A DNA stretch of 32,000 bases from Candidatus Saccharimonadota bacterium (GTDB lineage Bacteria; Patescibacteriota; Gracilibacteria; BD1-5; UBA2023): contig JAXLZO010000001.1 of the NCBI GenBank assembly GCA_046350815.1, positions 1,080,001-1,112,000 of the forward strand. The letters run 5' to 3'. A model generated the notes under the pieces. That model was not told the DNA's origin. It did no database searches and saw only the letters and a list, made by a program, of their open reading frames with translations. Positions 2,185-31,933 of the stretch are shown here, in pieces. The position numbers and the translations under genes are program-made. Every line of letters begins with the position of its first letter. The stretch's first letter is position 1.

Positions 2185-4413
2185 TTATTTATTACCTACC
2201 TTGATACGACTAGGCATTGCTCTTCCAAGAGTATTAATTGTGTTCTTTGGAGTCTCTAAAATAATATCTCATTTGTCATTTACAGAAAATGGAGAACTCA
2301 CACCTTGAGTATACATATAGGGCGTAGCTCATACATTACCTGAAAGGGTTAATGCCTGAGTGGTAACCAAGTTTGGTATCAATTGCTCGTAGAGCCCATC
2401 AATTTCACTTTGAGAGAGAACTTGCTTCAAAGCTATTGGATTACTTATTTTTTCCAACCGCTGACGAAATGCAACAGGATTACCATTTATGAGATCATTA
2501 AATTCCCTTTTGATCAACTCAAATATCTCACTACCATTTTCCTTTCGGTCTCTATGATACTTGTAAAAATTACGCAATGTACGATAACTGACATAATAAG
2601 AATCTGCATTCATCGTCATGGACTCAAAAAGAGCTTTTTGATAGAGATGTGTATTTTCTGTTTTTCCACGCAAAAGTGTATCCTGAACAAACGATCGCAT
2701 ACCAAGAATATTTTTAGCCCAAACCTGAAAAATATCTTCATGTTGAGCGTGGGTATTTTTTTCATATTCATCGGAATAAACCTTATCCGAAAAAAGAACA
2801 TCTACTCCAAGGATACTAGATAACTTCTTTGTAGTCGGACCCATATCTCCATCAGGAATCAGTATATCAACATCAAGAATTTTTCCAGAAATATGCTCAT
2901 TGATAAGAGCCATATTGAGGGCAGACTGCTGAGGTAAATGTCGCAGTGTCCTAACCACATTTGTCGGATAAATTGCAGCAACTCTATCAAAATTATCAGA
3001 ATTATTGAGTAACTCACTAGCACGATTATAGTTATTCGATTTAACAATATAGGAATCGCTTTGTTCATGCTTAAGATCCCTGATCACAGAGTTCTGTTGT
3101 CACACAAGATGATCTACTACCATCTGAGCATTTTGATAAACCCCAACTCCCATTTTCACTTTCTGTTCCAATTGTTTTATCAAACTATTTGTTCTGCTTA
3201 TTGCATCAGTTTTCCCTTTAATTTGACTCAAAATTTTCTTGCTTTTTCAAGAAGTTCTACGAAGCATATTAATTTCAGATTGCAATACGGCAACCTCACG
3301 TTTCCGAGCAGTCAATTCCGATCGATATTGATGTGCCAAACCTTCTGCCTGAGAACGTTGATAGCGCGCAGACTGCAACTGACGCGAATAATCTGCAACA
3401 ATTGTTTTAAGCTGTTCTTCTTTTGGATCAATGATCGCTTGCTCAATAACTTCTTGAGCACGATTTATCTGTTCATTTCCAACTCGCATATATTCAGCTA
3501 TATAAGCATGAATAACTATTCCAAGAGCAACACCGACCTCAAAATTAGCAGTTACATCTCAAGATTGAAATGCTTGTATGAATTCATCTGGAGAATCATA
3601 TCAACATATGGTATAAAGAGGAAGAAAATCATTGCCTGTAATATGATCTCAAACGCCCCAAGCTATAACATTATCACGCGATGCTCGAGGGAGCTGGAAC
3701 GATGCCACTTTCCGTAGAATCATATCACGAGTATTTGCATCATAATCATCAAGAGTATTTGTTTTCGTACGAAATGTCGCACGACTTGTAGGTTTAAATG
3801 GCTCAATCAGTGCATCAGGGACAAGACGTCATAGACGTACTCAACCATTTGAGAGGACATTTTCACTTTTAGCAGTGTGTAAAAGTGTTGATAAAAGCCC
3901 TTCATGAATGCGAATAGCCTCTTCTTCGGGGGCATTAGCATGATCAAAGTATTCGCTCTTTTCGGAAAAAGAGTTATTCTTCTTAAGAATTTCTCGTAAA
4001 GATATACTCGTACCATCATGCTGTGGCCAAATTGCATCAACAATTTTTCCACTCTTGTTATACTTCACAAGTGGAACTGACTCATATGGCATATTGTCAT
4101 TCTTCCCAAAATAAGAAGATGGGGAATAAACAACACCTTCTATCTTCTTCCATTCAGGATGTTGTTGAATATAACGATCTACTATATCTTCATATGGCTC
4201 GGTAAAAACACGTGCCTGAAGACCATTTTTATCACTATAAGTTAACGGTGGCACGGAAGCCACAGACCCAAGAAACAAAGTAAGTCAAAGAATCTTTCAC
4301 ACCTTACGATATATTCTCGTGACAGTTGATTGAGTTCGTGGACCTTGTATGTTAGTATGACTGGAAGAAATTCTGTTTTCATCCTCTCATAAATCTAATT
4401 TATCGTTTGACAT
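2185..4413 (-). CDS. Hypothetical membrane-anchored protein with central coiled coil (742 aa)
   Basis: Track ORFs 3841..4278, 3247..3489 and 2329..3087 are all in one frame. They join through about 12 TGA codons with no TAA/TAG. The section 3490-3843 and the 3' tail were checked codon by codon. N-terminus MSNDKLDLGEDEN...KVGKILGLTLFLGSVASVPP has one hydrophobic anchor. Residues about 310-420 are heptad-like and Q/R/E-rich. No motif I recognise. Confidence 0.7.
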
Positions 4414-5879: not shown

Positions 5880-5904
5880 AAACTACACTTTAAATGTAGT
5901 TTTT
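5878..5904. terminator. Bidirectional terminator hairpin between convergent genes
   Basis: Perfect 10-bp stem aaaaactaca/tgtagttttt with a 7-nt loop. A/T runs on both sides. It sits between the stop at 5879 (+) and the stop at 5903 (-). Confidence 0.7.
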
Positions 5905-6556
5905 ATTGCTCTATTTTTTGCGTTTTCAGTTTACTCTGAAGCTTTTCAAAATATGTTATTTGTTGATCAATTCTAATTTGTTGAGCTTCTGAAGCCTTAA
6001 GTAGCTCTACTGATCCAGTTATATTTTCTTCAATATCAGATTTTGCATGTTCCAATATTCATTTCTGGACTTCTATCACTTGTAATAAACGTTGCTTCAG
6101 GAGAATACTAAATTCAATGAGAAATTGAAGCTCATTCTTTAATTTGTGAATGGATTCCTTATATCCTTCTTGGCTAAGAAAAAAGCGCATTACATATCGA
6201 AACACAGAAAAATATTGTAGATTTCTCTGAATGACTTTCATTGCGGAAGTTATAATATCAATATCTTCAGTATCTTTATTTTCATGAAACCACAAAAGAC
6301 TTTTATCAATTTTCTGAAATAAGAAGGTAACTCATCATAATATACTTAATACTATAACAGCATATATTATAAATATTCATGCAACAAACATCATAAATCA
6401 TTCGAACCAGGTAATATCTACACCAAATAATGCTAATATAACACAAATGATGGCTACGATAGGAATCAAAAAAACAGTCAATGGTGATAGTGCGATAACC
6501 ATATTCCACTCGAGTTTATCATAAAAAGAATGCGCTCTTGTTTTGGGAGAAAACAT
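5903..6556 (-). CDS. Hypothetical 2-TM membrane protein with C-terminal helical domain (217 aa); paralog of 9692..10483
   Basis: Extends track ORF 6059..6295 in both directions through TGA codons, checked codon by codon. Hydrophobic N-terminal half (...MVIALSPLTVFLIPIVAIICVILALFG...FMMFVAGIFIIYAVIVLSILGG). C-terminus ...EVQKGILEHAKSDIE...SEAQQIRIDQQITYFEKLQSKL. The start is uncertain: ATG at 6556 or 6502. Confidence 0.6.
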
Positions 6557-6597
6557 AAACTTGTTTATGAAATAATAAAACTTTCCAAAGGAAAGCT

Positions 6598-6903
6598 TTA
6601 TCGATGTTTTGCAACCATTTCCAGAAGTTCATCTCCTGTCTTGAGACCGACTGCCTGCTCGACACGAACTCCGTCCTTGAAGACTATAATCGTTGGTATC
6701 GACATGATGCGAAACTTTGAAGCCGTCTCACCACATTCATCAACATTGCATTTGACCACCTTCACGTCAGTTTGTGTTTTTGCAAATTCTTCCAAACGAG
6801 GAAGCATTGCCTGACATGGACCACACCATTCAGCCCAGAAATCAACGAGAACAAGACCTGAGGCGATATCTGCCTCGAATGTAGCATCAGTTGTTACATG
6901 CAT
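6598..6903 (-). CDS. trxA: Thioredoxin (101 aa from ATG 6903; alternative TTG start at 6954 would add a hydrophobic N-terminal extension)
   Basis: MHVTTDATFEADIASGLVLVDFWAEWCGPCQAMLPRLEEF...MSIPTIIVFKDG... carries the canonical WCGPC active site and thioredoxin fold signature. Confidence 0.9.
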   Translation of the reverse strand: MHVTTDATFEADIASGLVLVDFWAEWCGPCQAMLPRLEEFAKTQTDVKVVKCNVDECGETASKFRIMSIPTIIVFKDGVRVEQAVGLKTGDELLEMVAKHR

Positions 6904-8050: not shown

Positions 8051-9712
8051 ATGTCCCGGGAAAATCCACCAAATACACCAGAACAACCATCACAAAAAAC
8101 AGAAACAATTTCTGTACCTTTCGAGTCGCTGTCAGCACTAGAGGCAATGTCAGTAAAAGAACTATCAATCCGAAAACAGCAAATAGAAGCAAAGATTTGA
8201 AAACTCAAAGAGCTCGACAAACAACAAGCTATTGCAAAATGAGGAAATATCTACACTCAAAGTAGTGAAAGTGATACCCTTATCCAAGCTCGCAATGAAG
8301 AATCCCTCATCGACAAAGCAATTCAAAAGAAAGCACAGACAATCCAGGATGTTTTCCACGATGATACCATATCCTACACCCCTCAGGATGTTTTGCGGCT
8401 CTATAAGCAACTGGAACCTACCTCACAACAAAACGATCCCGAATCTGCGTACGAATCACTCCAATGACAGGTTGATATTGCAAAAGATGGATCAAAAGAA
8501 TGATGGAGTCTCGATGAGATCCTTGAAAAACTCAAGATACCAAAAGACAATCTAGCATACCGAAAGATTATTGCAAGTGCATTTATCGGGGAAAAACTGA
8601 AGACCAAAAAAACAAGTGCTGATGTTGCAAATGCAGAATTTGATGCAATGAAAAGAGGCATTGCAGATCTTTCACCAGCTGGAAGAACAGCTTTTACGAA
8701 CATCTACCAGAGATTATCACAAAATGATCAGCTTTTGTTCGGGGAAGAGAGACTTATTACAGCACTCAGTTCTTGAGAAAACTATCAGCAAACAAGAGAA
8801 AATGTATTCAAAGAATTATGAGTTCAGATATCAGAGGAAGAGTACAATATCCTGGTCGGAAGTGCAAAACAAATTCATACTGAGACAGATACTGCAAAGA
8901 TACGAGCACAAGAAAATCAAGATATTCAAATCGCAGCCCTCGAAAAATGAAATCTTGTGGAAGCTCTCCAGCAAGAGACAAAATATCAACGAGAAACTTC
9001 ACAAATTGAATACTATCGAGATCTTCGATCGAGCATTTCAAAAACAGAATGAAACCAAATCAATAACATCAGCTCACAAGGCAACGAAAGCATGATTGTC
9101 GGAAGTGCAGATTTTTCGAAGAATCTCACGGAATTTATGAATGATCCAACGGTGAGTTCTATCTATCCAAAACTCAATGATGGTACGACGATCCCAATTA
9201 TTAAATCAGGACCTGATAGTTGTGTGGTGCAAGGCTGTGAGGTAAGCACAGAGAGCGTCGCATCCCTCATCGATATCAATCAAACACTTGCGAATGAATG
9301 ATTGAGATTTTTCTCAACAAAAACACCACTCACCAAAATTCTTGCCAATATGGAACAAGCTCTCCGTGCAAAAGGCGTACAAAACGTTCCCAATTTTGGA
9401 GATCCACAAACATTAGCAAATTATGGAGACAACATAGTGGATATACTCTACCAAGTCATCGATCCGAATCCAAAAGAGCAAATCGCTAACGTTTCCGAGA
9501 GAATCAACACAGCACACAAGAGATTTGCTGGATCCATTCCACTCATCGCCTACGGTCGCCAATCGGGCGTAGTTCGAGAAGATAGTAGTATTGATATCAA
9601 TACATTTACCGACAGGCTCAATTCTATGATACAAAGTGGATATCCGTTTCGGTTTTGAGGAGACAAAAAGGAGAAGAGACAAGAAATATCTTTAGATAAG
9701 CCTTTGTTGTAA
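8051..9712 (+). CDS. Hypothetical protein (553 aa), divergent from the MoxR gene
   Basis: One continuous frame from ATG 8051 (in-frame TAA at 8033 upstream) to TAA 9710-9712. It absorbs track ORFs 9092..9301 and 9302..9658 and passes about 10 TGA codons. Polar and Q/E/K-rich. No TM segment or motif recognised. Confidence 0.65.
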
Positions 9713-10483
9713 TTTTTCAAACTGCTCGATCTGTCTATCAAGTCTTATTTTTTGCAATTCTGAAATCTTAAGAATTTTTTGGGAACCAACAAGATATTTT
9801 TCAATTTCTAATTTTGCTCATTCAAGTGTTTTTTGTTGTTCACGAAGTTGAAACTGAAGGTCTGAACGTAGTTCCATAAGAATCATAGAACTAAGAGAAA
9901 TGGCTATCGAAACGAGGGGTTTAATTTGTTCCTTGCTTGTATCTGAAAAAATAAATTTCAATCGTCCCATATTTATAATTAAAGAAATTATTGATTTTAT
10001 TTTTTGCGACTGCTTAAGAATATCATCTATATCTTTAATTCCAACTTTTTGAGAACTTTCTTTATAAAAATAAAAGAGTGTAAGCATATCCTTTTTCAGT
10101 CTCTCAAATATATTGATGGATTTGATCCATTGATATCCCAAAATACTAAAATACCCAGGTATAAAGAATAATAAGATCATCATTAACTGTTCTAACCCTG
10201 GGTGATCACCTATAAAAAATAAAGACGATCAAGAATATGAGGGGTGTGTTGGTGCTAAATCATATAGTAGTATTACGGCCAGCATGAGCAAAAACCATAA
10301 AAATAGTCAGCTCACAATGCTCAGAAAAAGAATTAAATATTTCATAATCTGAGACATAAATTCAAATGACTGATTCAAATTCAGATCACAAAGATATACG
10401 ATTTTTTGACTCATTGCATCCATCCGTGCCTTTTCTTGTGCCCGTTCTTTAATTTGTGTAAAAATTTGATTACTTAATGACAT
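9692..10483 (-). CDS. Hypothetical 2-3 TM membrane protein with C-terminal helical domain (263 aa); paralog of 5903..6556
   Basis: ATG 10483 to TAA 9692. Includes track ORF 9818..10183. C-terminus ...REQQKTLEGAKLEIEKYLVGSQKILKISELQKIRLDRQIEQFEKLQQRLI aligns with the C-terminus of 5903..6556, including a TGA (Gly) at the equivalent position. Confidence 0.65.
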
Positions 10484-12270: not shown

Positions 12271-13764
12271 ATGAAAAAAATCTACACGAACGCAGGAGCA
12301 CAAATTGCAGGGAAAATCCTTACTGCTATCATCGCAATATTTCTCATACGAATACTCACGCAATATCTCTCAGTCGAGTGATATGGTCTCTATTCAAAGA
12401 TATATAACTATCTCTCAATATTTGCAACCATAGCCGACATGGGGCTCTATACCATTGCAGTACGAGAGATAGCACGAGCTGCAAGTAAATGAGATGAAGA
12501 GGAAGTTAGAAAAATCTCTGGAAATATTCTCACCATACGGAGTCTTGGCGGAGTTGCGATTATTGGTATTGCTCTTCTTATAGCGCTCTTTCTCCCATGA
12601 TACAACAGTCACATTGCACTCATTTGTATAGGTATTACGGGTATTTTTACACTCTTTGGACTGATTAATAGTTCTATTCTTGCACTCCTCCAAGCACGAC
12701 TCAAAAGTGAGTTTTCTCTTATCAGTAGTGTCACAGGAAAAATTATCACACTCCTCGGACTCATACTGATAACCTATATACTCCCTCGGGAAAGTACGCA
12801 TTTTGCAGAATGGTGACTCATCGCAATCATCACAGTGGGGCTCATAGGCAATATTGTCATGACCATGATGCTTGCGATCTATGCGAGAAAATCCGATTGG
12901 GTCGGATTTCAATATGATCCTGCATACATAAAACACATCTTCAAAGAAACTCTTCCATTTTGAATCGCTCTTTTTCTCGGAGTGGTCTATTTTAAAGTTG
13001 ATGTCATCCTTCTCTCGATACTCGAGCCAGAGAATATTCACGACGTTTCTATCGCACTCTATTCCCTGCCGATGAAAATCATAGAGGTTGGTATGGTATT
13101 TGGCACGGTGTACCTCAACTCTCTCCTTCCAGTACTCTCATCGCACCATCTAAGTCAAGAAAAAAAACACCGAGTCACTCATACAGCATGACTCCTTCTG
13201 AGTATCCTCGGAAGCATGATTAGCATAGGGTTTGCGTTTTGAGCTTATCAAGTTATCGGACTCATCGCAAGCAGTGAATATGTGAGAATCGGGAGCGTAT
13301 ACGACTCACCTCATGCCCTCATGATTACTGCCTGGATATTTGCTGTCTATTTTATCGCATCACTCTCAAATTATCTTCTCATCAATGCAAACAGACAAAA
13401 AGAACTCCTCAAAATCAATATTGCTATAACTCTTCTTAATATTGGTCTCAATCTCATATTCATACCACACTATTCATTTATCGGCGCAGCAGTTGCAACT
13501 CTCATTTCACAAGTCATCCTCACTCTCGCTACCCTCTCAAGGCTCAGATGAATGGGAATTTATAGCTCTATGCCTATTCGGCGATATCTTGAAGTATTTG
13601 CCTCGTCTCTCCTATGTGTGATCATCCTTGGATGAATCTACAAAATGATTCCAGATGGAATAGTATGACTCATCACGATTTGATCGATAATCCTCTTGGT
13701 ATTTTCACCAGTTCTCATAAAATGGTGGAAGTATAATAGTGAAACCACACTCTATGTCTCATAA
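12271..13764 (+). CDS. MOP-superfamily polysaccharide/lipid-linked oligosaccharide flippase (Wzx/MurJ-like, 497 aa)
   Basis: About 12-14 hydrophobic segments in one frame. N-terminus MKKIYTNAGAQIAGKILTAIIAIFLIRILTQYLSVEGYGLYS... is typical of polysaccharide biosynthesis (Wzx-type) proteins. About 11 in-frame TGA. The 208-aa antisense track ORF 12415..13041 is an artefact. Confidence 0.8.
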
Positions 13765-14314
13765 ACTTCTCGTAGCATTCGTATGACCCATCGGATCAGG
13801 CAAAGGAAAAGCAAGTGAAATCCTCAAAGAACACTATGATTGTGAGATTTACGGTTATTCCTCACCGCTTCGATCAATTGTCGCATTGATTGGACAGGAA
13901 GCAACTCGAGAAAATCTCTCGAATCTCTCACTCAGTCTTCGCCAAACTTTTGGGCAAGATGTACTCGAAAAATCAGCAATCGAAGCATATAAACGATCAG
14001 ACAAATCTATTATATTTCTCGACGGGGTACGACGAGAATCAGATATAGCCAATCTCCGCAAGATGGAAGAATTCATCCTCATCTACATCGATGCACCAAC
14101 GGAACTTCGCTACAAAAGAGTCACAGGAAGAGGTCAAAATGCTGGCGATACTGATAAGAGCTTTGAAGAATTTCTCAAAGACGAGGAACACGACACAGAG
14201 AAATCCATTCGATGACTTCGATCTCTTGCGAATACAGTCATTGAAAATACCGGAAGTGAAGCTGATCTTGAAGAGGCTCTCATATCGTACCTGAGACAAT
14301 ATATCGTTGACTAG
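13754..14314 (+). CDS. P-loop nucleotide/nucleoside kinase-like protein (186 aa; dephospho-CoA kinase/adenylate kinase-like fold)
   Basis: MSHKLLVAFVG(TGA 13784-13786)PIGSGKGKASEIL... is a Walker A with UGA at the first conserved Gly. Followed by ...IIFLDGVRRESD... Overlaps the flippase stop by 11 nt. Stop TAG 14312-14314. Confidence 0.7.
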
Positions 14315-14328
14315 ACCGAATCTTGACA

Positions 14329-14354
14329 ATCAACTCATTTGAGTTGATTTTTTC
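14329..14354 (+). terminator. Rho-independent terminator
   Basis: atcaactca/tgagttgat stem followed by tttttt, 15 nt after the kinase stop. Confidence 0.7.
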
Positions 14355-14380: not shown

Positions 14381-14409
14381 TTGACAACAAAAAAAAGAAA
14401 TGGTAGTCT
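14381..14409 (+). promoter_or_regulatory. Putative sigma-70-type promoter for the repeat-protein gene
   Basis: TTGACA (14381-14386), 17-nt spacer, TAGTCT (14404-14409), about 35 nt upstream of ATG 14445. By-eye match only. Confidence 0.3.
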
Positions 14410-14444
14410 TGAGGAGTTAAATTATTTATTCTAAAAATAACTAT

Positions 14445-17216
14445 ATGACTCTAGATAAACCAAAAGAAGGCTCAGAACTTTCTGGATTTAATATCAATAA
14501 ACTTAGTACTGATGCTGGGTTGGTTGAATTTGCAAAGCTTGCAAAGAATGTTAGTCTCCGCGATATGAAAAAATGGTGAAATACTGGCCTAAAGGCAAAA
14601 CTAGCATGAGCAACTGATGGCGATGTTCTCTATAAAGATTATCTTCACAGAAGACTCGGCATGTGAGATAAAAATGAAATCGATAGCGCAACTATGGCTG
14701 CACTTAAAAAAATCGCAGAATCTGGAAAAGTAGCCAAGATTCCATACACAATTCAGAGAAAAGGAAATGAGTTAGCACATACATCAACAGCTAAAAAGGC
14801 AAGAGAGGCTACGGCTTGAACTCAGTCTATTGAATCTATTGTTTCAATAAAACGTGAAGGTGTAACACAGGACAATGCAAAAAAAATTCTTGAACTTCTT
14901 CCTGCATCAAATGGACTACCAACAAAAAAAGCAATAGAAATGTGGGACAAAATATTGTTGTCAGAAAAAAAAGCAATCCAACGAAATATCTGAACAAAAG
15001 ATGATGGAATATTAGGAAAGAAAACCTTTCTTGCACTTCAGAAACGTGCAAATGATGAAATATACGCTGGTGATGATTTTGAATTTCCTAGAAACCCTGT
15101 GGTTGATAAAAAGCTAACTGCACTTGCGGTTGCAGCGGAAGCTGGGAAGCCTGCGGTTGCAGCGGAAGCTGGGAAGCCTGCGGTTGCAGCGGAAGCTGGG
15201 AAGCCTGCGGTTGCAGCGGAAGCTGGGAAGCCTGCGGTTGCAGCGGAAGCTGGGAAGCCTGCGGTTGCAGCGGAAGCTGGGAAGCCTGCGGTTGCAGCGG
15301 AAGCTGGGAAGCCTGCGGTTGCAGCGGAAGCTGGGAAGCCTGCGGTTGCAGCGGAAGCTGGGAAGCCTGCGGTTGCAGCGGAAGCTGGGAAGCCTGCGGT
15401 TGCAGCGGAAGCTGGGAAGCCTGCGGTTGCAGCGGAAGCTGGGAAGCCTGCGGTTGCAGCGGAAGCTGGGAAGCCTGCGGTTGCAGCGGAAGCTGGGAAG
15501 CCTGCGGTTGCAGCGGAAGCTGGGAAGCCTGCGGTTGCAGCGGAAGCTGGGAAGCCTGCGGTTGCAGCGGAAGCTGGGAAGCCTGCGGTTGCAGCGGAAG
15601 CTGGGAAGCCTGCGGTTGCAGCGGAAGCTGGGAAGCCTGCGGTTGCAGCGGAAGCTGGGAAGCCTGCGGTTGGACTTGAAACAAAATACCAGGATGGAAT
15701 AAATATTCTAAAGGCAGAGTTTGACCCTTCAAAATATACCTATGTTAGCTTTACGATTGATACAAAAGAAACTGGCAAAATAACAAAAGTATATCAAATT
15801 GATACCCAAGCTCTTAAAGCAGAATGAATCAATGATGTAACAAAAGAAAATTCATTTATGCTCATGCATATGGTGAGTAGAGGTGCTGCTGTCATGCCAA
15901 AATACTTTCGTGATATAGACACTATCTCTACAAGTGCTATTCCAAGTAACCTTCGAGGACTTGATCGAGTAGATTATGCAAATGCTCTTCTTAAATCACA
16001 AGGCATAGAAGTTAAGCCAAATATTCTTTCAGATGTAAATGGTCTTGGTGTTGGACTCAAAAAAACTCTTCTTCCATTCGGACTAGATAAGCTTGTCGGT
16101 CTTGGAAAAACTGGGGATGAATCCGTAGATACTGATGAACGAAAATCAGAAATGCAGAAAATCTCAAAAAAACTTCAAGAACAAAGCAATAAAATCTTCG
16201 ATGCGAATAATCGAGAAAACCTTTGAGAGCACTATGTTGATCTTTTTCTGAAAGCAAAGAATTTTGCTGAGCTCCAAGCGCAAGCAAAAGACGATCCTAT
16301 TCTCCAAGAAATCCTCTCTACATTCAGTACTCCAGTAAATCCTCAAGGCGATGAGCTTGGACTTGCCCAAGAAGATATCTTAGAGCGAGTCAAAGCAAAT
16401 ATTAATAAACAAGGACGGGAAGTATTTAAAAAGAAATTTGGCGACTTCATTGACAAAAGAAGTGTCGATGGCTTTATTGTACGAAATACAAATTTCCTCT
16501 TTGATGACGCCACACTTCAATCCATTACATCAAAAGATGGAAGTGGTATTCTCAAAGGAAATATGGATGGCGGTCGAGAAATCTATCTTTCAGCTCAAAA
16601 GCTGGATCTCAATGCAGCGAAACTTTCCTATACCAGAGACGGCAAAAGTATGGAACTATCTAATGAAGTTGCTCAATCTTTCAAGGGTCAAACTATTGAT
16701 CTTGGTATGCAAAAAAGTAATGCGAGCTCCGAAGTGCAAGCCATGATGAAGGAAACAAAAATTCATATCGATAGTAATGGCACAGCATATCTTATCACAA
16801 GTCCGAAATATATCAGTACACTCTCTCAAATCATGAGCCGTACTGGAGACGCTCTCACATCAAAAACAGCAGTCGAAGTATATAAAATAGTTGGTACCGT
16901 ACTTCTCACACTCAAACTTGCTGGGGACCATATTGGTACACCACATATTGGCACACCAAATCTTCCAAGTATTGATGTAAATCTTCCAAGTATTCATACC
17001 CCAGATGTATCATCACTCAATACAGCACTTGGTGGTTATGTACTTACATGAGCACTACTCAATCGAAAAATTGCATTTCTTGAGCGTGATCTTCGGAAAA
17101 ATCATATGGAGACACCATCCAATACTATTCTTACTTCCATGGCAACAAAGTATGGAGGAGATGCACAAAGTAAGCTCGACAAAGAAATTCTTGACGCTCA
17201 TAGGACATGAGCATAA
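14445..17216 (+). CDS. Large hypothetical protein (923 aa) with a 20x AVAAEAGKP tandem-repeat linker
   Basis: ATG 14445. Track ORFs 15099..15827, 15858..16226 and 16563..17051 are in the same frame and joined by TGA only; the segment 16227-16563 was checked and has no TAA/TAG. Stop TAA 17214-17216. N-terminal part contains ...DDGILGKKTFLALQKR..., weakly resembling a peptidoglycan-binding (PG_binding_1-like) helix pair. No obvious signal peptide. Confidence 0.75.
15126..15672 (+). repeat. Perfect 27-bp tandem repeat, 20 complete copies plus a 7-nt partial copy
   Basis: The unit gcggttgcagcggaagctgggaagcct repeats exactly every 27 nt from 15126 to 15665 (540 bp). 15666-15672 repeats the first 7 nt. 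The unit is 18/27 G+C in an AT-rich genome. Confidence 0.98.
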
Positions 17217-17219
17217 TAT

Positions 17220-17244
17220 AAAAACTCCCAAATGGGAGTTTTTA
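17220..17244. terminator. Bidirectional terminator hairpin between convergent genes
   Basis: aaaaactccca/tgggagttttt stem with flanking A and T runs, between stop 17216 (+) and stop 17266 (-). Confidence 0.7.
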
Positions 17245-20463: not shown

Positions 20464-21123
20464 TTAGACAATGAGACCATCTGAAATATGAATAATTCTA
20501 TCCGCATACTGTGCAATTTGCTGATCATGAGTGATAAGGAAAATTGTCTTACCTTGATTATGAAGCTTACCAAGAAGCTCCATAATCTCACGGCCTGTCT
20601 GACTATCAAGCGCTCCTGTTGGCTCATCTGCAAGAATAAGCGTTGGATTCGCAACGATGGAACGAGCAATACAAACACGCTGTTGTTGTCATCCAGATAA
20701 TTCTGTCGGTTTATTGAGGTATTTTTCTCAAAGTCATACATCTTCAAGGACAGATAGTGCTATAGATCGCGCTGACTTCTGATCAATATTTTGATAAAGA
20801 AGCGGAAGCATTACTTGTTCAATCACAGGCATACGAGGGATTAAATTATATCCCTGAAAAATAAAACCAATCTTTTGTCATCGGATACTTGCCTGATCAT
20901 ATTCTGAGAGATTTGCCACCTCCATATGATCCAGTAAATAAGAACCAGAAGTAGGAGTATCGAGTAAGCCAACAATATTCATTAGTGTCGACTTTCCTGA
21001 TCATGATGGTCACATAAGGGCAACAAATTCACCATCTTGAATCGTCAAAGACACCCCATTGAGTACCTCAAGGATCTCTCATCCTATATCGAATGATTTA
21101 TGTATATCTCGAAGATCAATCAT
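20464..21123 (-). CDS. ABC transporter ATP-binding protein, MacB/LolD-type (219 aa)
   Basis: Walker A is G(TGA 21010-21012)PSG(TGA 21001-21003)SGKST. Also a Q-loop, signature LSGG(TGA)[10 protein letters not shown], Walker [13 protein letters not shown], and H-loop ITHD. The track ORF 20418..20747 lies in a wrong frame. Confidence 0.95.
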
Positions 21124-26402: not shown

Positions 26403-26780
26403 TTATTTTGTTATTTTATAAGCAATAAAAAACGAAAGGGACACTGAAATCAGTATAGACAAGCATACGAAAAAAATGGAAATATCGATTCATGGGAACA
26501 ATGTAAGCATTAGACTTCAAAAAAAGATAGCACAGATAAAATATAAGGCTATGGATATAGGGATTGATAAAATCAGACATTGTAGCCACTGTCTAATGGT
26601 TCGATGAACTCAACATTGAGTTATTAAAAATAATACAATGATCAAGAATAATACCAACAAGAAAATAAACATTGTAGAGAAAATTCAAACCAATGCTTCT
26701 GTTGCTCAGTGTGCGAATGTAGCACTTGGTATACCCAAGAGAAGTAAACAAAGTAAAGTATTTTTTCGAAAAGTAGACAT
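26403..26780 (-). CDS. Small membrane protein, 'FAH-motif' paralog D (125 aa)
   Basis: MSTFRKNTLLCLLLLGIPSATFAHGATEALVGIF... then 3 hydrophobic segments. 5 in-frame TGA. Stop TAA 26403, 18 nt upstream of the thrS start. Confidence 0.55.
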
Positions 26781-26823
26781 AAGAGAAATTTACATTTAGG
26801 ACCTAAGCCAAAACAAAACAATA

Positions 26824-27078
26824 TTATAAAAACGAGGTAAATAGTATACTCATTTTAGCTAGTAAAAAAATTAAGAGAACTATTCATAATATTTTACAAA
26901 AGATTTTAAAACCTCATATAAGTAACATGAAAAAACATAAAAAACAAAAGTAAATTCAGAGATATATATAGGCCATTCCATCACCATGAGCAAACACAAT
27001 ACTTGGAGTCAAAAGCAACAAGGCAACGAATCCATATCCAACTAATCCATATCGGAGAGGAGATTGAATGAGAGACAT
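26824..27078 (-). CDS. Small membrane protein, 'FAH-motif' paralog A (84 aa, shorter)
   Basis: MSLIQSPLRYGLVGYGFVALLLLTPSIVFAHGDGMAYIYLGIYF... Only about 2 hydrophobic segments follow the motif. Possibly a truncated family member. Confidence 0.5.
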
Positions 27079-27089
27079 AAGAGAGAAGA

Positions 27090-27494
27090 TTATTTAATAA
27101 TTTGACGAGCGAGTTTTGGGGCAAAAGAGAGAAAGATACAAAGTAAAATAAATCATATCAGATAATAAAATATCCAAAACCATTCAGACAAAATAGTTAA
27201 TCCATTAACATTTAATATTCCCCAAAAATATTCCCATATCCATAAGAAGGAAGTAAATATACAAGCATAGAATAACCACGAAAGTAGTATTTGTGCGATT
27301 TTACGAACCGTGCTTCATCCGTATTTATTAGCAAAGTAACAAAATATAACAATAAAGATGATAATTGCTAGCATCAATAAAAAGAATATCAACAAGTATC
27401 AGAATCATTCTACTGTATGTGCAAACGTAATATTTGGAATAAGAATCAACAAAGCAGCTAATCAATATCGGAGAGGAGAATAAGAAAAAGACAT
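27090..27494 (-). CDS. Small membrane protein, 'FAH-motif' paralog B (134 aa)
   Basis: MSFSYSPLRYGLAALLILIPNITFAHTVEGFGYLLIFF... 3 hydrophobic segments. C-terminus ...KLARQIIK. 11-nt gap to the next gene. Confidence 0.55.
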
Positions 27495-27505
27495 AGAAGA
27501 AAAAA

Positions 27506-27925
27506 TTATTTTACGATTTTACGAACTATTTGAACAGAGATATTTGCAAGATAATTTATCCCTTTTGTAATCAAAAAAATACTAATAAGGAAAAGGCCTA
27601 CCAATCAGAAGCTGAAGTTTGTGACATTATCTCTAGTGAGATACAACATAAAAAATACACCTATAAAAACACCAAAAAGTAAGATTATAGAAAAAGTTAA
27701 AGCTATTATTCCTTGAAATATTTTTTTTGTTATAGAACCAGTAGATATCTTTTTGATTCATGCCATAATATAAAATGGTAGAAAAATAGCTGTTAGTACC
27801 ATAACAGGCAGAATAAGCATTATCAAGAAAACTCACGCATCACCATGAGCAAAAGCTACACTAGGGAATAGAACCAAAGATAAAGCAACATAAAGATATC
27901 TGAAAAAAGAATAAGAAAGAGACAT
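27506..27925 (-). CDS. Small membrane protein, 'FAH-motif' paralog C (139 aa)
   Basis: MSLSYSFFRYLYVALSLVLFPSVAFAHGDAGVFLIMLILP... 3 hydrophobic segments. C-terminus ...VQIVRKIVK. Includes track ORF 27633..27836. Confidence 0.55.
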
Positions 27926-27981: not shown

Positions 27982-28734
27982 GGGTCTAAACCAGTTACGG
28001 GTTATATTGACGAAGTAACTTTAGCACTTCCTTATAAATATCTTTTCATTGAATACGACAATTATATCTGAATTCAGATTCTTTCAAAAAATAGTAGAAG
28101 TAGACTTTCTTGATTCCATTGAATTGAGAGAGTCTTCTTTTGGTATAACTCCAAAATGACTCTATTCAATTAATGTGTTGAGTTCATCTTGCAAATTCAT
28201 TTGCTCCGTGATGAACACGGTAGTGTTTCTCATATCCAATATCTACAAGCCCATCATAAGCTCACCATCCATCACTGTTAATCTCAGACTCTTCTATACG
28301 AAGTTTTCATCGAATGATTGGCACGAGAGTCCTTGCTTTTACATCAGGAACTATCTCAGTATATACTTTTCAGTTTCTTTTGAGTAAACCAAAGACTATT
28401 GTCTTCATACCAGCTCACCTTCCTCTCTTTCATCGGACTCTTGTTGGTCAGAAGTAACTCTCATCTATCTCAACATTTCCAGTCCATATTTCATTCTTTT
28501 CTCTCTCACAGAGAAAGGCTATCGCCTTTCTGATATATCTATACCAATCCTGTGTTGTTTTTGGATTGAGACCTGTTAATACCGCTGTTTTATCTGAAGT
28601 AAAATCCAGAGAAAAATATTTCACAATTTCTCTTATTTTTGCATCTCAAATTCGTGATTTTTTCCTATAGGTAGTTTTACTGATCATAGAGCCAAGTTTA
28701 TGGGATAATTTATCCTGTCAACTGGTTTAGACCC
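27982..28734 (-). mobile_element. IS1595-family insertion sequence (753 bp) with 15-bp terminal inverted repeats and a 7-bp target-site duplication
   Basis: IRL gggtctaaaccagtt (27982-27996) is the exact reverse complement of 28720-28734. Flanking direct repeats ttatata at 27975-27981 and 28735-28741. A single transposase ORF fills the element. Confidence 0.9.
27995..28687 (-). CDS. IS1595-family (ISXO2-like) DDE transposase (230 aa)
   Basis: ...NVEIDESYFGPTRVRGKRGRGAGMKTIVFGLLKRNGKVYTEIVPD...INSDGWGAYDGL...HYRVHHGANEFARG..HINGIESFWSYTKRRL...FLKESEFRYN... is the typical IS1595 catalytic-core pattern. 10 in-frame TGA at Gly positions. Confidence 0.9.
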
Positions 28735-28768
28735 TTATATAAATGAATATCTTATTGAACTCTATCAA

Positions 28769-29326
28769 TTATGTCATCCTGAACTTGATTCAGGATCTTC
28801 GACTACTCCACGGATCTCATGAATCAAATTGCCCGAGGAGTGCAAAACTCTCACTATAGCTGGCGATGATATCAAGGAGTCATCGAGCCTCTTGGAGAGA
28901 AATATCCTCAATATCCTTGCGATGACTAATAAGCTCAATGGTCTTCTGAAGTTCTCCGAGTCGTTTTTGATTGATACTATAGCCTTGTATGAGATATTCC
29001 TTGAGTCTCGTCGTCGCCCATTGACGAAATCTGGTTGCCTTTCAGGAATTTGTCCGATATCAGACCGCGAGGATGACATCAAGTGAATAAAACTTCACCG
29101 GCTTATCAGAATTTGCAATATGCATTTTTTGCATATTGCTTTTTTCATCGATCTCTCCATCTCGAAAAATATTGCGAATATGGCGAGCAACGACCGATTG
29201 ATCAATATCAAAAAGCTCTACAATCTGAGTCTGACTCGCCCAGACCGTATCTTGTCTTGGATCAAGTTGCAGCTCAAGTCGATCTTCGTAGAGAATCAAT
29301 GATGTTTTTTGAAGTTGAGTGGTCAT
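28769..29326 (-). CDS. RhuM-family protein, C-terminally truncated (185 aa)
   Basis: MTTQLQKTSLILYEDRLELQLDPRQDTVWASQTQIVELFDIDQSVVARHIRNIFRDGEIDEKSNMQKMHIANSDKPVKFYSLDVILAVGYRTNSGKATRFRQWATTRLKEYLIQGYSINQKRL... matches the conserved RhuM N-terminal region. The reading frame ends inside repeat hairpin 28773-28797. Confidence 0.7.
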
Positions 29327-29343
29327 AAGGTTTTTTAGTCGAA

Positions 29344-29434
29344 GATCCTGATTTTCATCAGGATGACAAATTTTATAAATGTATACCATATCGAAATACT
29401 ATCAATTACGTCATCCTGAACTTGATTCAGGATC
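29344..29434. repeat. Composite palindromic repeat, copy B (91 bp, intact)
   Basis: gatcctgattttcatcaggatgac (29344-29367), 42-bp spacer, gtcatcctgaacttgattcaggatc (29410-29434). It lies between the RhuM start (29326) and the GIY-YIG stop (29453). Confidence 0.9.
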
Positions 29435-31152: not shown

Positions 31153-31933
31153 GGCTCTAGACCAGAAGAAAGTAACTCATATACTCTCTTCTTATGATCC
31201 CATACAGCAAAATATCAGTTCACGAACTTAAAAAGATTATTAAGTGCTTTTGTGTGGATATTGATGCCACAAAAACAAGCGAGCTTTTGGGATATAATCG
31301 AAAGACCGTTAACCATTATTTCTCTATCTTTAGGAAAATAATCTACACGAATCGTATTGAGGCTTTCAAAGAAAAGATAGGTTGAGAAATAGAAGTAGAT
31401 GAAAGCTATTTCTGAGCCAAGCGAAAAAGATGATTTGCAGGAAAACTTAAACGATGAAGATGAACCCTCAAACAGCCAGTATTTTGACTCATCAAGAGAA
31501 AAGATGAGAATGGAAGAGTAGAAATATATACAGAGATTATTCCGAATTGCAAAGCTGTAACACTCCGCCCTATAATACAGGGAAAAGTCAGTATAGAAGA
31601 TTCTATCCTATATTCGGATGGCTGGAAGGGATACGATGGTCTCGTAGATGTATGAATCGACAAGCACTTTCGAGTCAACCATGGTACAAGTGAATTCTCA
31701 CTTGGGAATGGAATTCACATCAATGGGATTGAGAACTTCTGGAGTTTTACAAAGCGCCGATTGAACAAGTTCAACGGCGTGAAAGTAAACTTTCACCTTC
31801 ATCTCAAAGAATGTGAATGGAGATATACCAAAGAAAGCTTTGAACTTGAGCAGGAACTTCTTACAATGATTAAAATCTTTTATAAAAAATCCAGAAAATC
31901 TTAGATATTTCTAAAATCTTCTGGTCTAGAGCC
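31153..31933 (+). mobile_element. Second, different IS1595-family insertion sequence (781 bp) with 16-bp perfect TIRs and a 7-bp target-site duplication
   Basis: ggctctagaccagaag (31153-31168) is the exact reverse complement of 31918-31933. Direct repeats aatgata at 31146-31152 and 31934-31940. Confidence 0.9.
31194..31904 (+). CDS. IS1595-family (ISXO2-like) DDE transposase (236 aa)
   Basis: Track ORF 31194..31385 continues through TGA: ...EIEVDESYFGAKRKRGFAGKLKRGRGTLKQPVFGLIKR...YSDGWKGYDGLVDVG..HFRVNHGTSEF...HINGIENFWSFTKRRL...LKECEWRY... Stop TAG 31902-31904. Roughly 40% identical by eye to the transposase at 27995..28687. Confidence 0.9.

What the first reader, a model, noticed from the sequence alone, without database searches (positions are those of the whole stretch)
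15126..15672. Twenty perfectly identical, GC-rich 27-bp tandem repeats (AVAAEAGKP) inside an AT-rich genome
540 bp of head-to-tail repeats without a single substitution, plus a 7-nt partial copy. The unit is 18/27 G+C, far above the surrounding sequence. It is in frame, giving a 180-residue Ala/Glu/Lys/Pro linker in a 923-aa protein. Zero divergence implies very recent expansion or continuing concerted evolution by replication slippage or recombination. That makes this a likely length-variable (VNTR/contingency-type) locus that tunes the reach of a surface or envelope protein. The other two reading frames of the repeat are also open (track ORFs 15088..15732 and 15124..15702), but only one joins the flanking coding sequence. 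Caveat: a perfect 540-bp repeat cannot be sized by short reads, so the copy number may be an assembly estimate.
Basis: seen in the sequence. Interest (0 to 1): 0.7.

Follow-up and report, generated by a model that had tools for sequence, protein, structure and literature searches.

The report
Perfect 27-bp repeat linker, Gracilibacteria protein
Twenty identical 27-base repeats really do encode a 180-residue Ala-rich spacer inside a lineage-specific protein of an uncultivated Gracilibacteria bacterium (TGA = glycine); relatives carry a differently homogenised array or no array at the same site, so this is a well-documented but ordinary case of a fast-turnover, in-frame minisatellite.

Summary
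**Observation:** confirmed. There are 20 perfect 27-bp units at 15126..15665 plus a 7-nt partial copy.

**Reading frame:** the 923-aa ORF (14445..17216, + strand) exists only under genetic code 25, where TGA = Gly, not Trp. The organism is a Candidatus Gracilibacteria.

**GC content:** the unit's high G+C comes from Ala/Gly/Pro codons, not from foreign DNA.

**Protein:** it is an orphan family with a conserved N-module, a spacer and a polymorphic C-domain.

**Relatives:**
- A sister species (~83% nt identity) has an array at the same site with the identical right junction. Its unit is different (AVAVDTKTP, 19/27 nt), and all visible copies are identical. I read this as concerted evolution.
- Other alleles at the same locus, in both lineages, carry a non-repetitive 155-160-aa linker. 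That linker holds single-copy relatives of both units and is joined to a C-domain only 36% identical.

**Copy number:** unverified. Short-read assemblies break at the array. One contig with 2 copies may be an assembler collapse.

**Localisation:** no signal peptide or clear transmembrane helix supports "surface protein".

**Phase variation:** a 27-nt unit cannot shift the reading frame, so this is not an on/off contingency switch.

**Verdict:** a real, dynamic, in-frame minisatellite, and a new member of a known kind.

The parts
14328..14349 (+). Terminator-like hairpin after the upstream kinase-like gene (13754..14314). It suggests that the repeat gene has its own promoter.
   Evidence: 9-bp stem followed by a T-run; gene map
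14394..14447 (+). Conserved 5' leader and start region of the gene. It is retained across divergent alleles.
   Evidence: 89% nt identity to the 5' end of L003. The upstream frame IIY[SF]KNNY-M is shared.
14445..17216 (+). Coding sequence of the repeat-bearing protein: 923 aa under genetic code 25, with 9 in-frame TGA = Gly codons and a TAA stop at 17214..17216.
14445..14774 (+). N1, the variable N-terminal segment (aa 1-110). No signal peptide.
   Evidence: 28% aa identity between window and L013, against 90% between L013 and L003. Hydropathy.
14775..15125 (+). N2, the conserved module (aa 111-227) that ends at ...VVDKKLTAL immediately before the array.
   Evidence: 88-89% aa identity to L013 and L003; alignment
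14976..15056 (+). Motif NIGTKDDGILGKKTFLALQKRAN (aa 178-204) with weak similarity to peptidoglycan-binding domains.
   Evidence: All hits are below threshold: PG_binding_3 E = 0.038 and 0.1, PG_binding_1 E = 0.13, PHROG 1224 endolysin E = 0.053, PDB 7dnp_A E = 0.59
15126..15665 (+). Twenty perfect copies of the 27-bp unit GCGGTTGCAGCGGAAGCTGGGAAGCCT, encoding (AVAAEAGKP)x20, aa 228-407.
15666..15672 (+). 7-nt partial copy (GCGGTTG) forming the right junction. The same junction (GCGGTT, then Gly-Leu-Glu-Thr-Lys) is found in the sister-species array.
   Evidence: L017 confirms it independently
15673..17213 (+). C-terminal domain (about 514 aa). It is polymorphic and is an orphan family.
   Evidence: aa identity 89.5% to L019, 64% to L001, 36% to L003. 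No Pfam or PHROG hit. A HMMER scan of 1.84 billion representatives finds only fragments of the same gene. AlphaFold2 model has mean pLDDT 49, and Foldseek finds no match.
16851..16925 (+). First moderately hydrophobic helix near the C-terminus (aa 803-827, ...VYKIVGTVLLTLKLAG...).
   Evidence: Kyte-Doolittle 19-residue maximum of 1.33, below the usual transmembrane cut-off. Predicted helix in the P0001 model. Conserved in all alleles.
17007..17081 (+). Second moderately hydrophobic helix (aa 855-879, ...LNTALGGYVLTGALLNRKIAFL...).
17220..17243 (.). Hairpin AAAAACTCCC-AAAT-GGGAGTTTTT directly after the stop codon. It has an A-tract on one side and a T-tract on the other, so it could terminate both this gene and the convergent ribosomal protein L25 gene.
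   Evidence: Sequence. Conserved (94%) after the stop codon of L003, and present as an inverted match in L029.

Best explanation
The array is an in-frame coding minisatellite. It forms the spacer of a modular, lineage-specific protein in a Candidatus Gracilibacteria bacterium that uses genetic code 25.

**Architecture.** The protein has four parts:
- a variable N-terminus (N1);
- a conserved ~115-aa module (N2), possibly related to peptidoglycan-binding domains;
- a low-complexity spacer;
- a ~510-aa polymorphic C-domain.

**Alleles.** In one allele class (C-domain type B) the spacer is a tandem array of a 9-codon unit. In the other class (type A) it is a non-repetitive Thr/Ala/Glu-rich stretch of 155-160 aa.

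**Proposed history (inferred).** The array arose by amplification of a short segment already present in the linker. It is kept homogeneous by repeated slipped-strand mispairing and/or unequal recombination, which is concerted evolution. As a result, each lineage carries its own unit: AVAAEAGKP here and AVAVDTKTP in the sister species.

**Proposed role (inferred).** The array acts at the protein level as a flexible or extended tether, where length and composition matter and sequence does not. Because the unit is 27 nt, gains and losses change spacer length without ever breaking the frame.

**Shown:** the array, the reading frame, the genetic code, the orthologous array with a different unit, the array-less alleles at the same locus, the proto-units, and the mosaic pattern of identities.
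**Inferred:** the slippage or recombination mechanism, the spacer role, and any link to the cell surface.
For: - **Array and frame:**
- **Code 25:**
- **Taxonomy:** the ThrRS fragment is 76-83% identical to Gracilibacteria and Patescibacteria MAGs.
- **Orthologous array:**
  - L013 is syntenic; neighbouring genes are 89-93% aa identical and the flanks ~83% nt identical.
  - L013 and L009 run from the N2 module into 3 or more perfect copies of GCGGTTGCGGTGGATACGAAGACGCCT.
  - L019, L020, L023, L027 and L028 begin inside the same array and continue into a C-domain 89.5% aa / 84% nt identical to the window's. The junction is the same: GCGGTT, then G-L-E-T-K.
  - The units differ at 8 of 27 positions. 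That is more than the flanks differ, yet the copies within each array are identical.
- **Array-less alleles at the same locus:**
  - L012 is 99.7% identical to L013 for 675 nt and then diverges at the start of the linker.
  - L007 aligns to L013 from inside the kinase gene onwards.
  - L110 carries the window-type N1 (93.8% nt identity) with a type-A linker and C-domain.
- **Proto-units in L003:** 21/27 match to the window unit and 19/27 to unit 2. They lie 3 nt apart, and 0 of 500 shuffles reached either score.
- **Linker lengths:** 198 aa in the window against 155-160 aa in array-less alleles.
- **GC content:** explained by amino-acid composition.
- **RNA structure:** no signal in either unit (z = +0.56 and -1.22).
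- **Precedent:** an in-frame repeat gene that fragments assemblies has been described in the same phylum (Sieber et al., bioRxiv 10.1101/595074).
Against: - The copy number of 20 is seen only in this window. Exact look-ups for 1-6, 8, 12 and 16-22 copies with the window's flank sequence found nothing, and short-read assemblies break at the array.
- Copy-number polymorphism is therefore not demonstrated.
- The left (L013, L009) and right (L019 etc.) halves of the sister-species gene are never on one contig. Joining them is an inference from the shared unit and from their co-occurrence in one sample (ERZ22157246, coverage 45x and 35x).
- No evidence places the protein outside the cell.
- The peptidoglycan-binding similarity is below every curated threshold.
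- The structure model is of low confidence (pLDDT 49), so the spacer-plus-effector picture rests on the conservation pattern alone.
Confidence: 0.72

Rival explanations
1. The array is real, but the 20-copy length is an assembly estimate or artefact, for example from gap filling, scaffolding or a long-read consensus error. The true length could be much shorter or longer.
For: - The only other contig spanning the site (L111, a MEGAHIT contig about 99.5% identical in both flanks) has 2 copies plus 7 nt.
- The independent Logan assembly of the same organism breaks 30 nt into the array.
- No protein with 6, 8, 12 or 16-22 copies is in the 15-billion-protein collection.
Against: - L111's 61-nt array is exactly the minimum in-phase loop traversal for k = 39, 55 or 59, so L111 itself is the more likely artefact.
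- A 20-copy array gives a 198-aa linker, close to the 155-160 aa of non-repetitive alleles. Two copies would give 36 aa.
- The sister-species arrays also exceed the assembler's k, because all 22 contigs carrying P0005 are under 2 kb and several begin inside the array.
Confidence: 0.25
2. The locus is a true length-variable (VNTR-type) surface protein. Copy number differs between cells or strains and tunes how far a surface-exposed C-domain projects, for attachment to a host or prey cell or for escape from phages or antibodies.
For: - Perfect repeats are the substrate for slippage.
- L111 may be a genuine 2-copy allele in a strain about 99.5% identical.
- The locus shows deep allelic dimorphism and mosaicism, typical of genes under diversifying or balancing selection.
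- There is a weak peptidoglycan-binding-like motif.
- Gracilibacteria are thought to depend on other cells, and a repeat protein was proposed as an attachment factor in another member of the phylum.
Against: - There is no signal peptide, lipobox or convincing transmembrane segment.
- No domain hit reaches a curated threshold.
- The L111 length coincides with an assembler collapse.
- No within-sample length heterogeneity could be measured.
Confidence: 0.35
3. The repeat acts at the nucleic-acid level. It might be an mRNA structure that modulates translation, a recombination hotspot, a protein-binding DNA array, or coding sequence in an alternative frame or strand. On this view the peptide is incidental.
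For: - All frames on both strands are open across the array.
- The unit contains a small CAGC-GGAA-GCUG hairpin in the centroid fold.
- Allele breakpoints map to the start of the linker.
Against: - Folding energy is no better than shuffled sequence (z = +0.56). The sister unit lacks the hairpin (z = -1.22, empty centroid).
- Only one frame joins the conserved flanking coding sequence, and it does so in every lineage.
- The alternative frames are open simply because a GC-rich unit has no stop codon.
- There is no Rfam hit in the window.
Confidence: 0.05
4. The GC-rich array is foreign DNA, a mobile-element or phage-derived insertion, rather than a locally born repeat.
For: - The unit is 67% G+C in a 38% G+C window.
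- Two IS1595-family transposase genes lie 12-16 kb away.
Against: - The GC excess lies in codon positions 1 and 2 (0.78 vs 0.42), as expected for Ala/Gly/Pro. Third-position GC is only 0.44 vs 0.33.
- Single-copy relatives of both units are present in the array-less alleles at the homologous position.
- The exact unit has no match in JGI metagenome contigs.
- The flanks show no element boundaries.
Confidence: 0.03

Closest known systems
Gracilibacteria (BD1-5) hypervariable PTD-repeat gene (Sieber et al., bioRxiv 10.1101/595074; read)
   Same: - Same phylum and same genetic code.
- An in-frame tandem repeat inside a poorly characterised protein fragments short-read assemblies.
- The authors expect slippage or recombination and could not determine copy number.
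- The gene is bracketed by stem-loops.
   Different: - That repeat has a 9-nt (3-aa) unit with several synonymous variants and cell-to-cell heterogeneity, while the peptide is conserved. Here the unit is 27 nt, copies are identical within a genome, and the peptide differs between lineages at 5 of 9 residues.
- That protein has a predicted N-terminal transmembrane helix; this one does not.
- No sequence similarity between the two proteins was tested here.
Ureaplasma multiple banded antigen (MBA) and similar mollicute size-variable repeat lipoproteins (e.g. PMC3637154, abstract; unit details from general knowledge)
   Same: - An in-frame array of identical short units, rich in Pro, Ala, Gly, Lys and Glu, in a small-genome bacterium with a reassigned TGA codon.
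- Gain and loss of units changes protein size without frameshift.
   Different: - MBA is a demonstrated surface-exposed lipoprotein with observed size variation. Here neither export nor size variation is shown.
- The MBA repeats are C-terminal. Here the array is an internal linker between two non-repetitive domains.
- TGA encodes Trp there and Gly here.
Alpha-like proteins of streptococci (alpha C, Rib; PMC6936399 and PMC2191029, listed)
   Same: Tandem repeats that are identical at the DNA level within a gene but differ between alleles, which is concerted evolution. They are flanked by a distinct N-terminal domain.
   Different: - Those units are folded domains of about 80 aa in LPXTG-anchored proteins with signal peptides.
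- Here the unit is 9 aa, of low complexity, and probably unstructured.
Plasmodium falciparum MSP2-type dimorphic antigens (PMC4749986, abstract)
   Same: A central variable region carries allele-family-specific repeats next to conserved sequence, with two deeply divergent allele families maintained in populations.
   Different: - That is a eukaryotic, GPI-anchored, fully disordered protein.
- Here only the N2 module is conserved, and the dimorphism extends through a large C-domain that is probably folded.
Ala/Pro-rich inter-domain linkers, such as the lipoyl-domain linkers of 2-oxo-acid dehydrogenase E2 chains and the TonB and TolA spacers (general knowledge; not tested here)
   Same: Ala, Pro, Glu and Lys composition with regularly spaced Pro. 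They act as an extended, flexible tether between folded modules, where length matters more than sequence.
   Different: - Those linkers are short (20-70 aa) and not perfect DNA repeats.
- No homology is claimed.

Membership tests
Coding minisatellite under concerted evolution | Head-to-tail units whose length is a multiple of 3, in frame with the flanking coding sequence | tested here: met
   27-nt unit x 20, contiguous with the 923-aa ORF
Coding minisatellite under concerted evolution | Units within an array are more alike than units of orthologous arrays in related genomes | tested here: met
   Copies within each array are 100% identical: 20 copies in the window, and 3 or more visible at each end of the sister-species array. 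Between arrays the units match at 19/27 (70%), while the flanks are 83-84% identical.
Coding minisatellite under concerted evolution | Orthology of the arrays (same site in the same gene) | tested here: met
   Same right junction (GCGGTT, then G-L-E-T-K) and the same phase. The left boundary lies within 15 nt. The upstream genes are syntenic.
VNTR / size-variable repeat protein (MBA or alpha-C type) | Copy number differs among strains or cells | tested here: inconclusive
   One contig (L111) has 2 copies against 20 in the window, but 61 nt equals a k = 39/55/59 loop collapse. All other assemblies break in the array. Presence or absence of the array is polymorphic.
VNTR / size-variable repeat protein (MBA or alpha-C type) | Export and surface anchoring signal (signal peptide, lipobox, LPXTG or transmembrane anchor) | tested here: not met
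   The N-terminus MTLDKPKEGSELSG... is hydrophilic. The highest 19-residue Kyte-Doolittle score is 1.33. No dedicated signal-peptide predictor was available.
Simple-sequence contingency locus (on/off phase variation) | A change in repeat number shifts the reading frame or the promoter spacing | tested here: not met
   The unit is 27 nt (3 x 9) and lies inside the coding sequence, so the frame is preserved at any copy number.
Peptidoglycan-binding domain proteins (Pfam PG_binding_1 / PG_binding_3) | Score at or above the Pfam gathering threshold | tested here: not met
   PG_binding_3 scores 14.6 and 13.2 bits against a cut-off of 24.6. PG_binding_1 scores 12.9 against 23. Hits from four libraries fall on the same 30-residue motif, so this is a lead only.
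Genetic code 25 organism (Gracilibacteria / Absconditabacteria) | In-frame TGA at positions where conserved proteins have Gly | tested here: met
   The ABC ATPase Walker A and signature motifs are restored only if TGA = Gly. Reading TGA as sense roughly triples the DNA in open frames of at least 100 codons. The nearest ThrRS sequences come from Gracilibacteria MAGs. No suppressor tRNA gene lies in the window.
Polymorphic toxin / Rhs-CDI-type variable C-terminus | Unrelated C-terminal toxin domains are swapped after a conserved region, with an adjacent immunity gene | tested here: not met
   The C-domains of all alleles align along their whole length at 36-90% identity. The downstream neighbour is a convergent ribosomal protein L25 gene, not an immunity gene.

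The most novel reading that the evidence does not exclude
The gene could be a host- or prey-interaction factor of an episymbiotic Gracilibacteria lineage, held under long-term balancing selection.
- Two ancient allele classes (array plus type-B C-domain, and non-repeat linker plus type-A C-domain) persist across at least two species.
- Within the array class, the tether is repeatedly rebuilt from different proto-units and its length is tuned by slippage.

That would make it a natural system in which the birth, homogenisation and length tuning of a protein spacer can all be observed in one locus of an uncultivated CPR bacterium.
Probability: 0.15. Interest if true: 0.6.

Novelty: new member of a known kind. 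Interest (0 to 1): 0.42.

Why it matters
In-frame perfect minisatellites in bacterial proteins are well known, so the phenomenon itself is not new. This locus is still useful in three ways.

1. **Evolution of a coding repeat.** It gives an unusually complete picture inside an uncultivated candidate-phyla-radiation bacterium. The array-less allele shows the single-copy proto-units. Two species show arrays built from different units at the same site. All of these are embedded in a mosaic, dimorphic gene.

2. **Assembly and annotation.** Of the public short-read contigs I retrieved that reach the array, every one breaks there except L111, which may have collapsed it. Gene callers that use table 11 split the protein at its TGA codons. 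As a result, the family is nearly invisible in protein databases holding billions of sequences.

3. **Candidate gene.** If the protein is an interaction factor, it is a candidate for studying how Gracilibacteria contact their partners. That remains speculative.

Tried and rejected
- **Table 4 (TGA = Trp):** rejected in favour of table 25 on the Walker A and ABC signature motifs.
- **tRNA and Rfam scans of the window:** nothing found.
- **Exact 27-mer in JGI metagenome contigs:** 0 hits.
- **C-domain profile in GTDB species genomes:** 0 relatives.
- **Word-based homology searches:** one fragment hit each for the C-domain and the N-domain.
- **Search with the repeat-bearing fragment:** only spurious Ala-rich hits. 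This negative is unreliable. It missed P0010, which an exact look-up later showed to be in the collection.
- **Full HMMER scan of 1.84 billion representatives:** only fragments of the same gene, plus one spurious repetitive protein, P0009.
- **Structure:** AlphaFold2 on P0001 with a 3-row alignment gave mean pLDDT 49, and Foldseek against the PDB gave no match below E = 0.1. I treat both as uninformative.
- **Domain and structure-sequence libraries:** Pfam, PHROGs and PDB sequence searches gave only sub-threshold hits.
- **Exact look-ups of hypothetical copy-number variants:** only the L111 form exists.
- **Look-ups of three flank fragments:** nothing on record.
- **Run accessions in the literature:** no relevant papers, so the source environment is unknown.
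- **Degenerate periodicity in the array-less linker:** none detected by TRF at score 30 or above.
- **RNA structure of the array:** not better than shuffled sequence.
- **Foreign-DNA origin:** rejected on codon-position GC and the local proto-units.
- **Polymorphic-toxin reading:** rejected because the C-domains are homologous along their whole length and there is no immunity-like neighbour.
Full report
**1.

Tandem Repeats Finder reports one strong array in the window: 15125..15672, period 27, 20.3 copies, 100% matches, no indels. Direct counting gives 20 consecutive perfect copies of GCGGTTGCAGCGGAAGCTGGGAAGCCT at 15126..15665, followed by the 7-nt partial copy GCGGTTG. The unit occurs nowhere else in the window. 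It is 18/27 G+C, against 38.2% for the rest of the window. Chance cannot produce this.

**2. The reading frame depends on an unstated fact: genetic code 25**

- Under table 11 the region splits into short ORFs.
- Treating TGA as sense raises the longest open frame from 505 to 932 codons. It also roughly triples the amount of DNA in open frames of at least 100 codons.
- The ABC-transporter ATPase at 20464..21123 (-) reads GPSGSGKST (Walker A) and LSGGQQQR (signature) only if TGA = Gly. With TGA = Trp both motifs are broken.
- TGA supplies 26% of Gly codons in the window's genes.
- The TGA-free ThrRS fragment is 76-83% identical to MAGs labelled Candidatus Gracilibacteria or Patescibacteria. The organism is therefore a Gracilibacteria with no close species representative in GTDB.
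- The window is ordinary chromosome. It carries ribosomal protein L25, ThrRS, a MacB-type ABC transporter, a flippase, a MoxR ATPase, a radical-SAM enzyme and a DNA polymerase III delta' subunit.

**3. The gene**

The coding sequence is 14445..17216 (+), 923 aa with 9 in-frame TGA codons. It looks monocistronic:
- A terminator-like hairpin follows the upstream kinase-like gene at 14328..14349.
- A hairpin, AAAAACTCCC-AAAT-GGGAGTTTTT, sits directly after the stop codon at 17220..17243. It is conserved in relatives.
- The next gene is the convergent L25 gene.

The array encodes (AVAAEAGKP)x20, aa 228-407. The unit's GC richness is explained by its amino acids. GC at codon positions 1 and 2 is 0.78, against 0.42 in other genes. 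Third-position GC is 0.44 against 0.33. The open frames on the other strand and in the other phase are the trivial result of a stop-free unit. Only one frame joins conserved coding sequence, and it does so in every lineage. Neither unit folds better than shuffled sequence as RNA (z = +0.56 and -1.22).

**4. The protein is an orphan**

- The N-terminal 227 aa and the C-terminal 516 aa have no Pfam or PHROG match above threshold.
- Word-based searches of 5.8 billion clusters returned one fragment each.
- A full HMMER scan of 1.84 billion representatives returned only four TGA-bounded fragments of the same gene and one spurious repetitive protein.
- The family has no relative in 185,579 GTDB species genomes.
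- The AlphaFold2 model was poor (pLDDT 49) and Foldseek found nothing.
- The one recurring lead is the motif NIGTKDDGILGxKTxLALQKRAN just before the linker. It gives sub-threshold hits to PG_binding_3, PG_binding_1, a PHROG endolysin family and PDB 7dnp_A. This is a hint of peptidoglycan binding, not a finding.
- There is no signal peptide. The two conserved C-terminal helices are only moderately hydrophobic, with a 19-residue Kyte-Doolittle maximum of 1.33. 'Surface protein' is therefore not supported by sequence.

**5. Relatives show what the array is**

*(a) Sister species, array allele.*
- L013 is a 10-kb contig that is syntenic with the window. Neighbouring genes are 89-93% aa identical and the flanks ~83% nt identical.
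- Its ortholog runs from the conserved N2 module into perfect copies of a different 27-bp unit, GCGGTTGCGGTGGATACGAAGACGCCT (AVAVDTKTP). The contig ends inside the array. L009 does the same.
- Ten further contigs, from ten samples, carry a C-domain 89.5% aa / 84% nt identical to the window's. Five of them begin inside that same array.
- That array abuts the C-domain at exactly the window's junction: the partial GCGGTT, then Gly-Leu-Glu-Thr-Lys.
- The two units share period, phase and 19/27 bases.
- So the arrays are orthologous and each is internally identical, yet they are more diverged from each other (30%) than the flanks are (16-17%). This is the signature of concerted evolution.

*(b) Array-less alleles at the same locus.*
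- L012 is 99.7% identical to L013 over 675 nt and then diverges at the first codons of the linker.
- L007 aligns to L013 from inside the upstream kinase gene.
- These type-A alleles (L003-L008, L012) have a non-repetitive Thr/Ala/Glu/Ser-rich linker of 158-160 aa. Their C-domain is only 36% identical to the window's, but it aligns along its whole length.
- L110 combines the window-type N-terminus (93.8% nt identity) with a type-A linker and C-domain. The dimorphism therefore exists in both lineages.
- Segment identities confirm a mosaic:
  - N1: window to L013 28%, L013 to L003 90%.
  - N2: 88-97% throughout.
  - C-domain: window to L019 89.5%, to L001 64%, to L003 36%.

*(c) Origin of the units.*
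- In the array-less L003 linker, the best ungapped match to the window unit is 21/27 (GCGGTTACAGCGGAAGCTGGTGAAGCA, AVTAEAGEA).
- The best match to the sister unit is 19/27 (…GCTGTGGATGCGAAGCAGTCT, VDAVDAKQS).
- The two matches lie 3 nt apart, and none of 500 shuffles reached either score.
- The inference is that the ancestral linker held both short segments and that different lineages amplified different ones. TRF finds no residual periodicity in that linker.

**6. Copy number remains open**

- Logan contig L017, from the same organism (100% identical over 7,060 nt), starts 30 nt inside the array. That is a k-1 break.
- L111, a MEGAHIT contig with 4 mismatches in each flank, spans the site with only 2 copies plus 7 nt.
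- However, 61 nt is exactly the shortest in-phase traversal of the repeat loop for k = 39, 55 or 59. It may be a collapse. That 39 and 59 are MEGAHIT default k values is from my own knowledge.
- Exact look-ups found no other copy-number form in 15 billion proteins.
- The linker-length comparison (198 aa, against 155-160 aa in array-less alleles and 36 aa in L111) favours a long array as the functional state. This is an inference.

**7. Mechanism**

- *Shown:* an in-frame, perfectly homogeneous array that replaces a non-repetitive linker between a conserved module and a polymorphic domain, with lineage-specific homogenised units.
- *Inferred:* expansion and homogenisation by slipped-strand mispairing and/or unequal recombination. 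The peptide probably acts as a flexible or extended tether in which length and Ala/Pro/charged composition matter and sequence does not, since 5 of 9 residues differ between the two units.
- Because the unit is 27 nt, changes in copy number alter length only. This is not an on/off contingency switch.

**8. Comparison with known systems**

- The closest precedent is the PTD-repeat gene of a closed Gracilibacteria genome (bioRxiv 10.1101/595074). It shares the phylum and the assembly problem. It differs in having a 9-nt unit with synonymous heterogeneity.
- Functionally similar kinds are the Ureaplasma MBA (PMC3637154), the streptococcal alpha-like proteins (PMC6936399) and the dimorphic repeat antigen MSP2 (PMC4749986).
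- The export and anchoring signals that define those surface proteins were looked for here and not found. I therefore file this locus as a coding minisatellite under concerted evolution, not as a member of any of those families.

**9. Verdict**

It is a well-documented new member of a known kind, of moderate interest.

Noticed in passing
window, whole (e.g. 20464..21123 -): The genome uses genetic code 25 (TGA = Gly). TGA supplies about 26% of Gly codons in the window's genes. Public gene calls for this lineage use table 11, so proteins are split at every TGA.
   Followed up: yes
window 26403..27925 (-): Four tandem small hydrophobic paralogs (84-139 aa). Each begins MS..(S)..RY and has a signal-like segment ending in FAH. 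This looks like a lineage-specific family of small membrane or secreted proteins.
   Followed up: no
window 27995..28687 (-) and 31194..31904 (+); 28769..29389 (-): Two IS1595/ISXO2-like transposase genes (Pfam E = 3e-27 and 1e-22) flank a RhuM-family gene. L013 also has a short 82%-identical match to window 28685..28744, which suggests a repeated element end.
   Followed up: no
window 5903..6829 (-) and 9692..10483 (-): Two predicted membrane proteins share a C-terminal motif (…QIR[IL]D[RQ]QI..FEKLQ…) and are probably paralogs. The large neighbouring ORFs at 2185..4413 (-) and 8051..9712 (+) have no Pfam match. The second is only 58% identical to its L013 ortholog, while its neighbours are about 90% identical.
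   Followed up: no
L021 and L024 (3' ends), L006 (3' end): Public metagenome contigs end in Illumina adapter sequence (AGATCGGAAGAGC…; translated as …SEEHTSELQSH in L006). This is adapter contamination in the deposited assemblies.
   Followed up: no
L003 vs L004, linker region: Two array-less alleles from different samples differ by 6 nt (2 aa) in a Thr-rich stretch of the linker (TTPETTTTTQAPQ vs TTSETNTQATQ). Even the non-repetitive linker therefore shows small in-frame length changes.
   Followed up: partly
L001 / L002 (Logan ERR2088990 and ERR2088991): A third C-domain allele class, 64% aa identical to the window. Its contigs end about 10 codons upstream of the C-domain (…TTPVVTEVGQ). This is consistent with another unassembled repeat or linker, but that could not be shown.
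   Followed up: partly
The word-indexed homology search with the Ala-rich repeat query missed a true relative (P0010, on L111). The search scored only 8000 candidates, probably mostly low-complexity proteins. Negative results from that tool are unreliable for repeat queries.
   Followed up: yes
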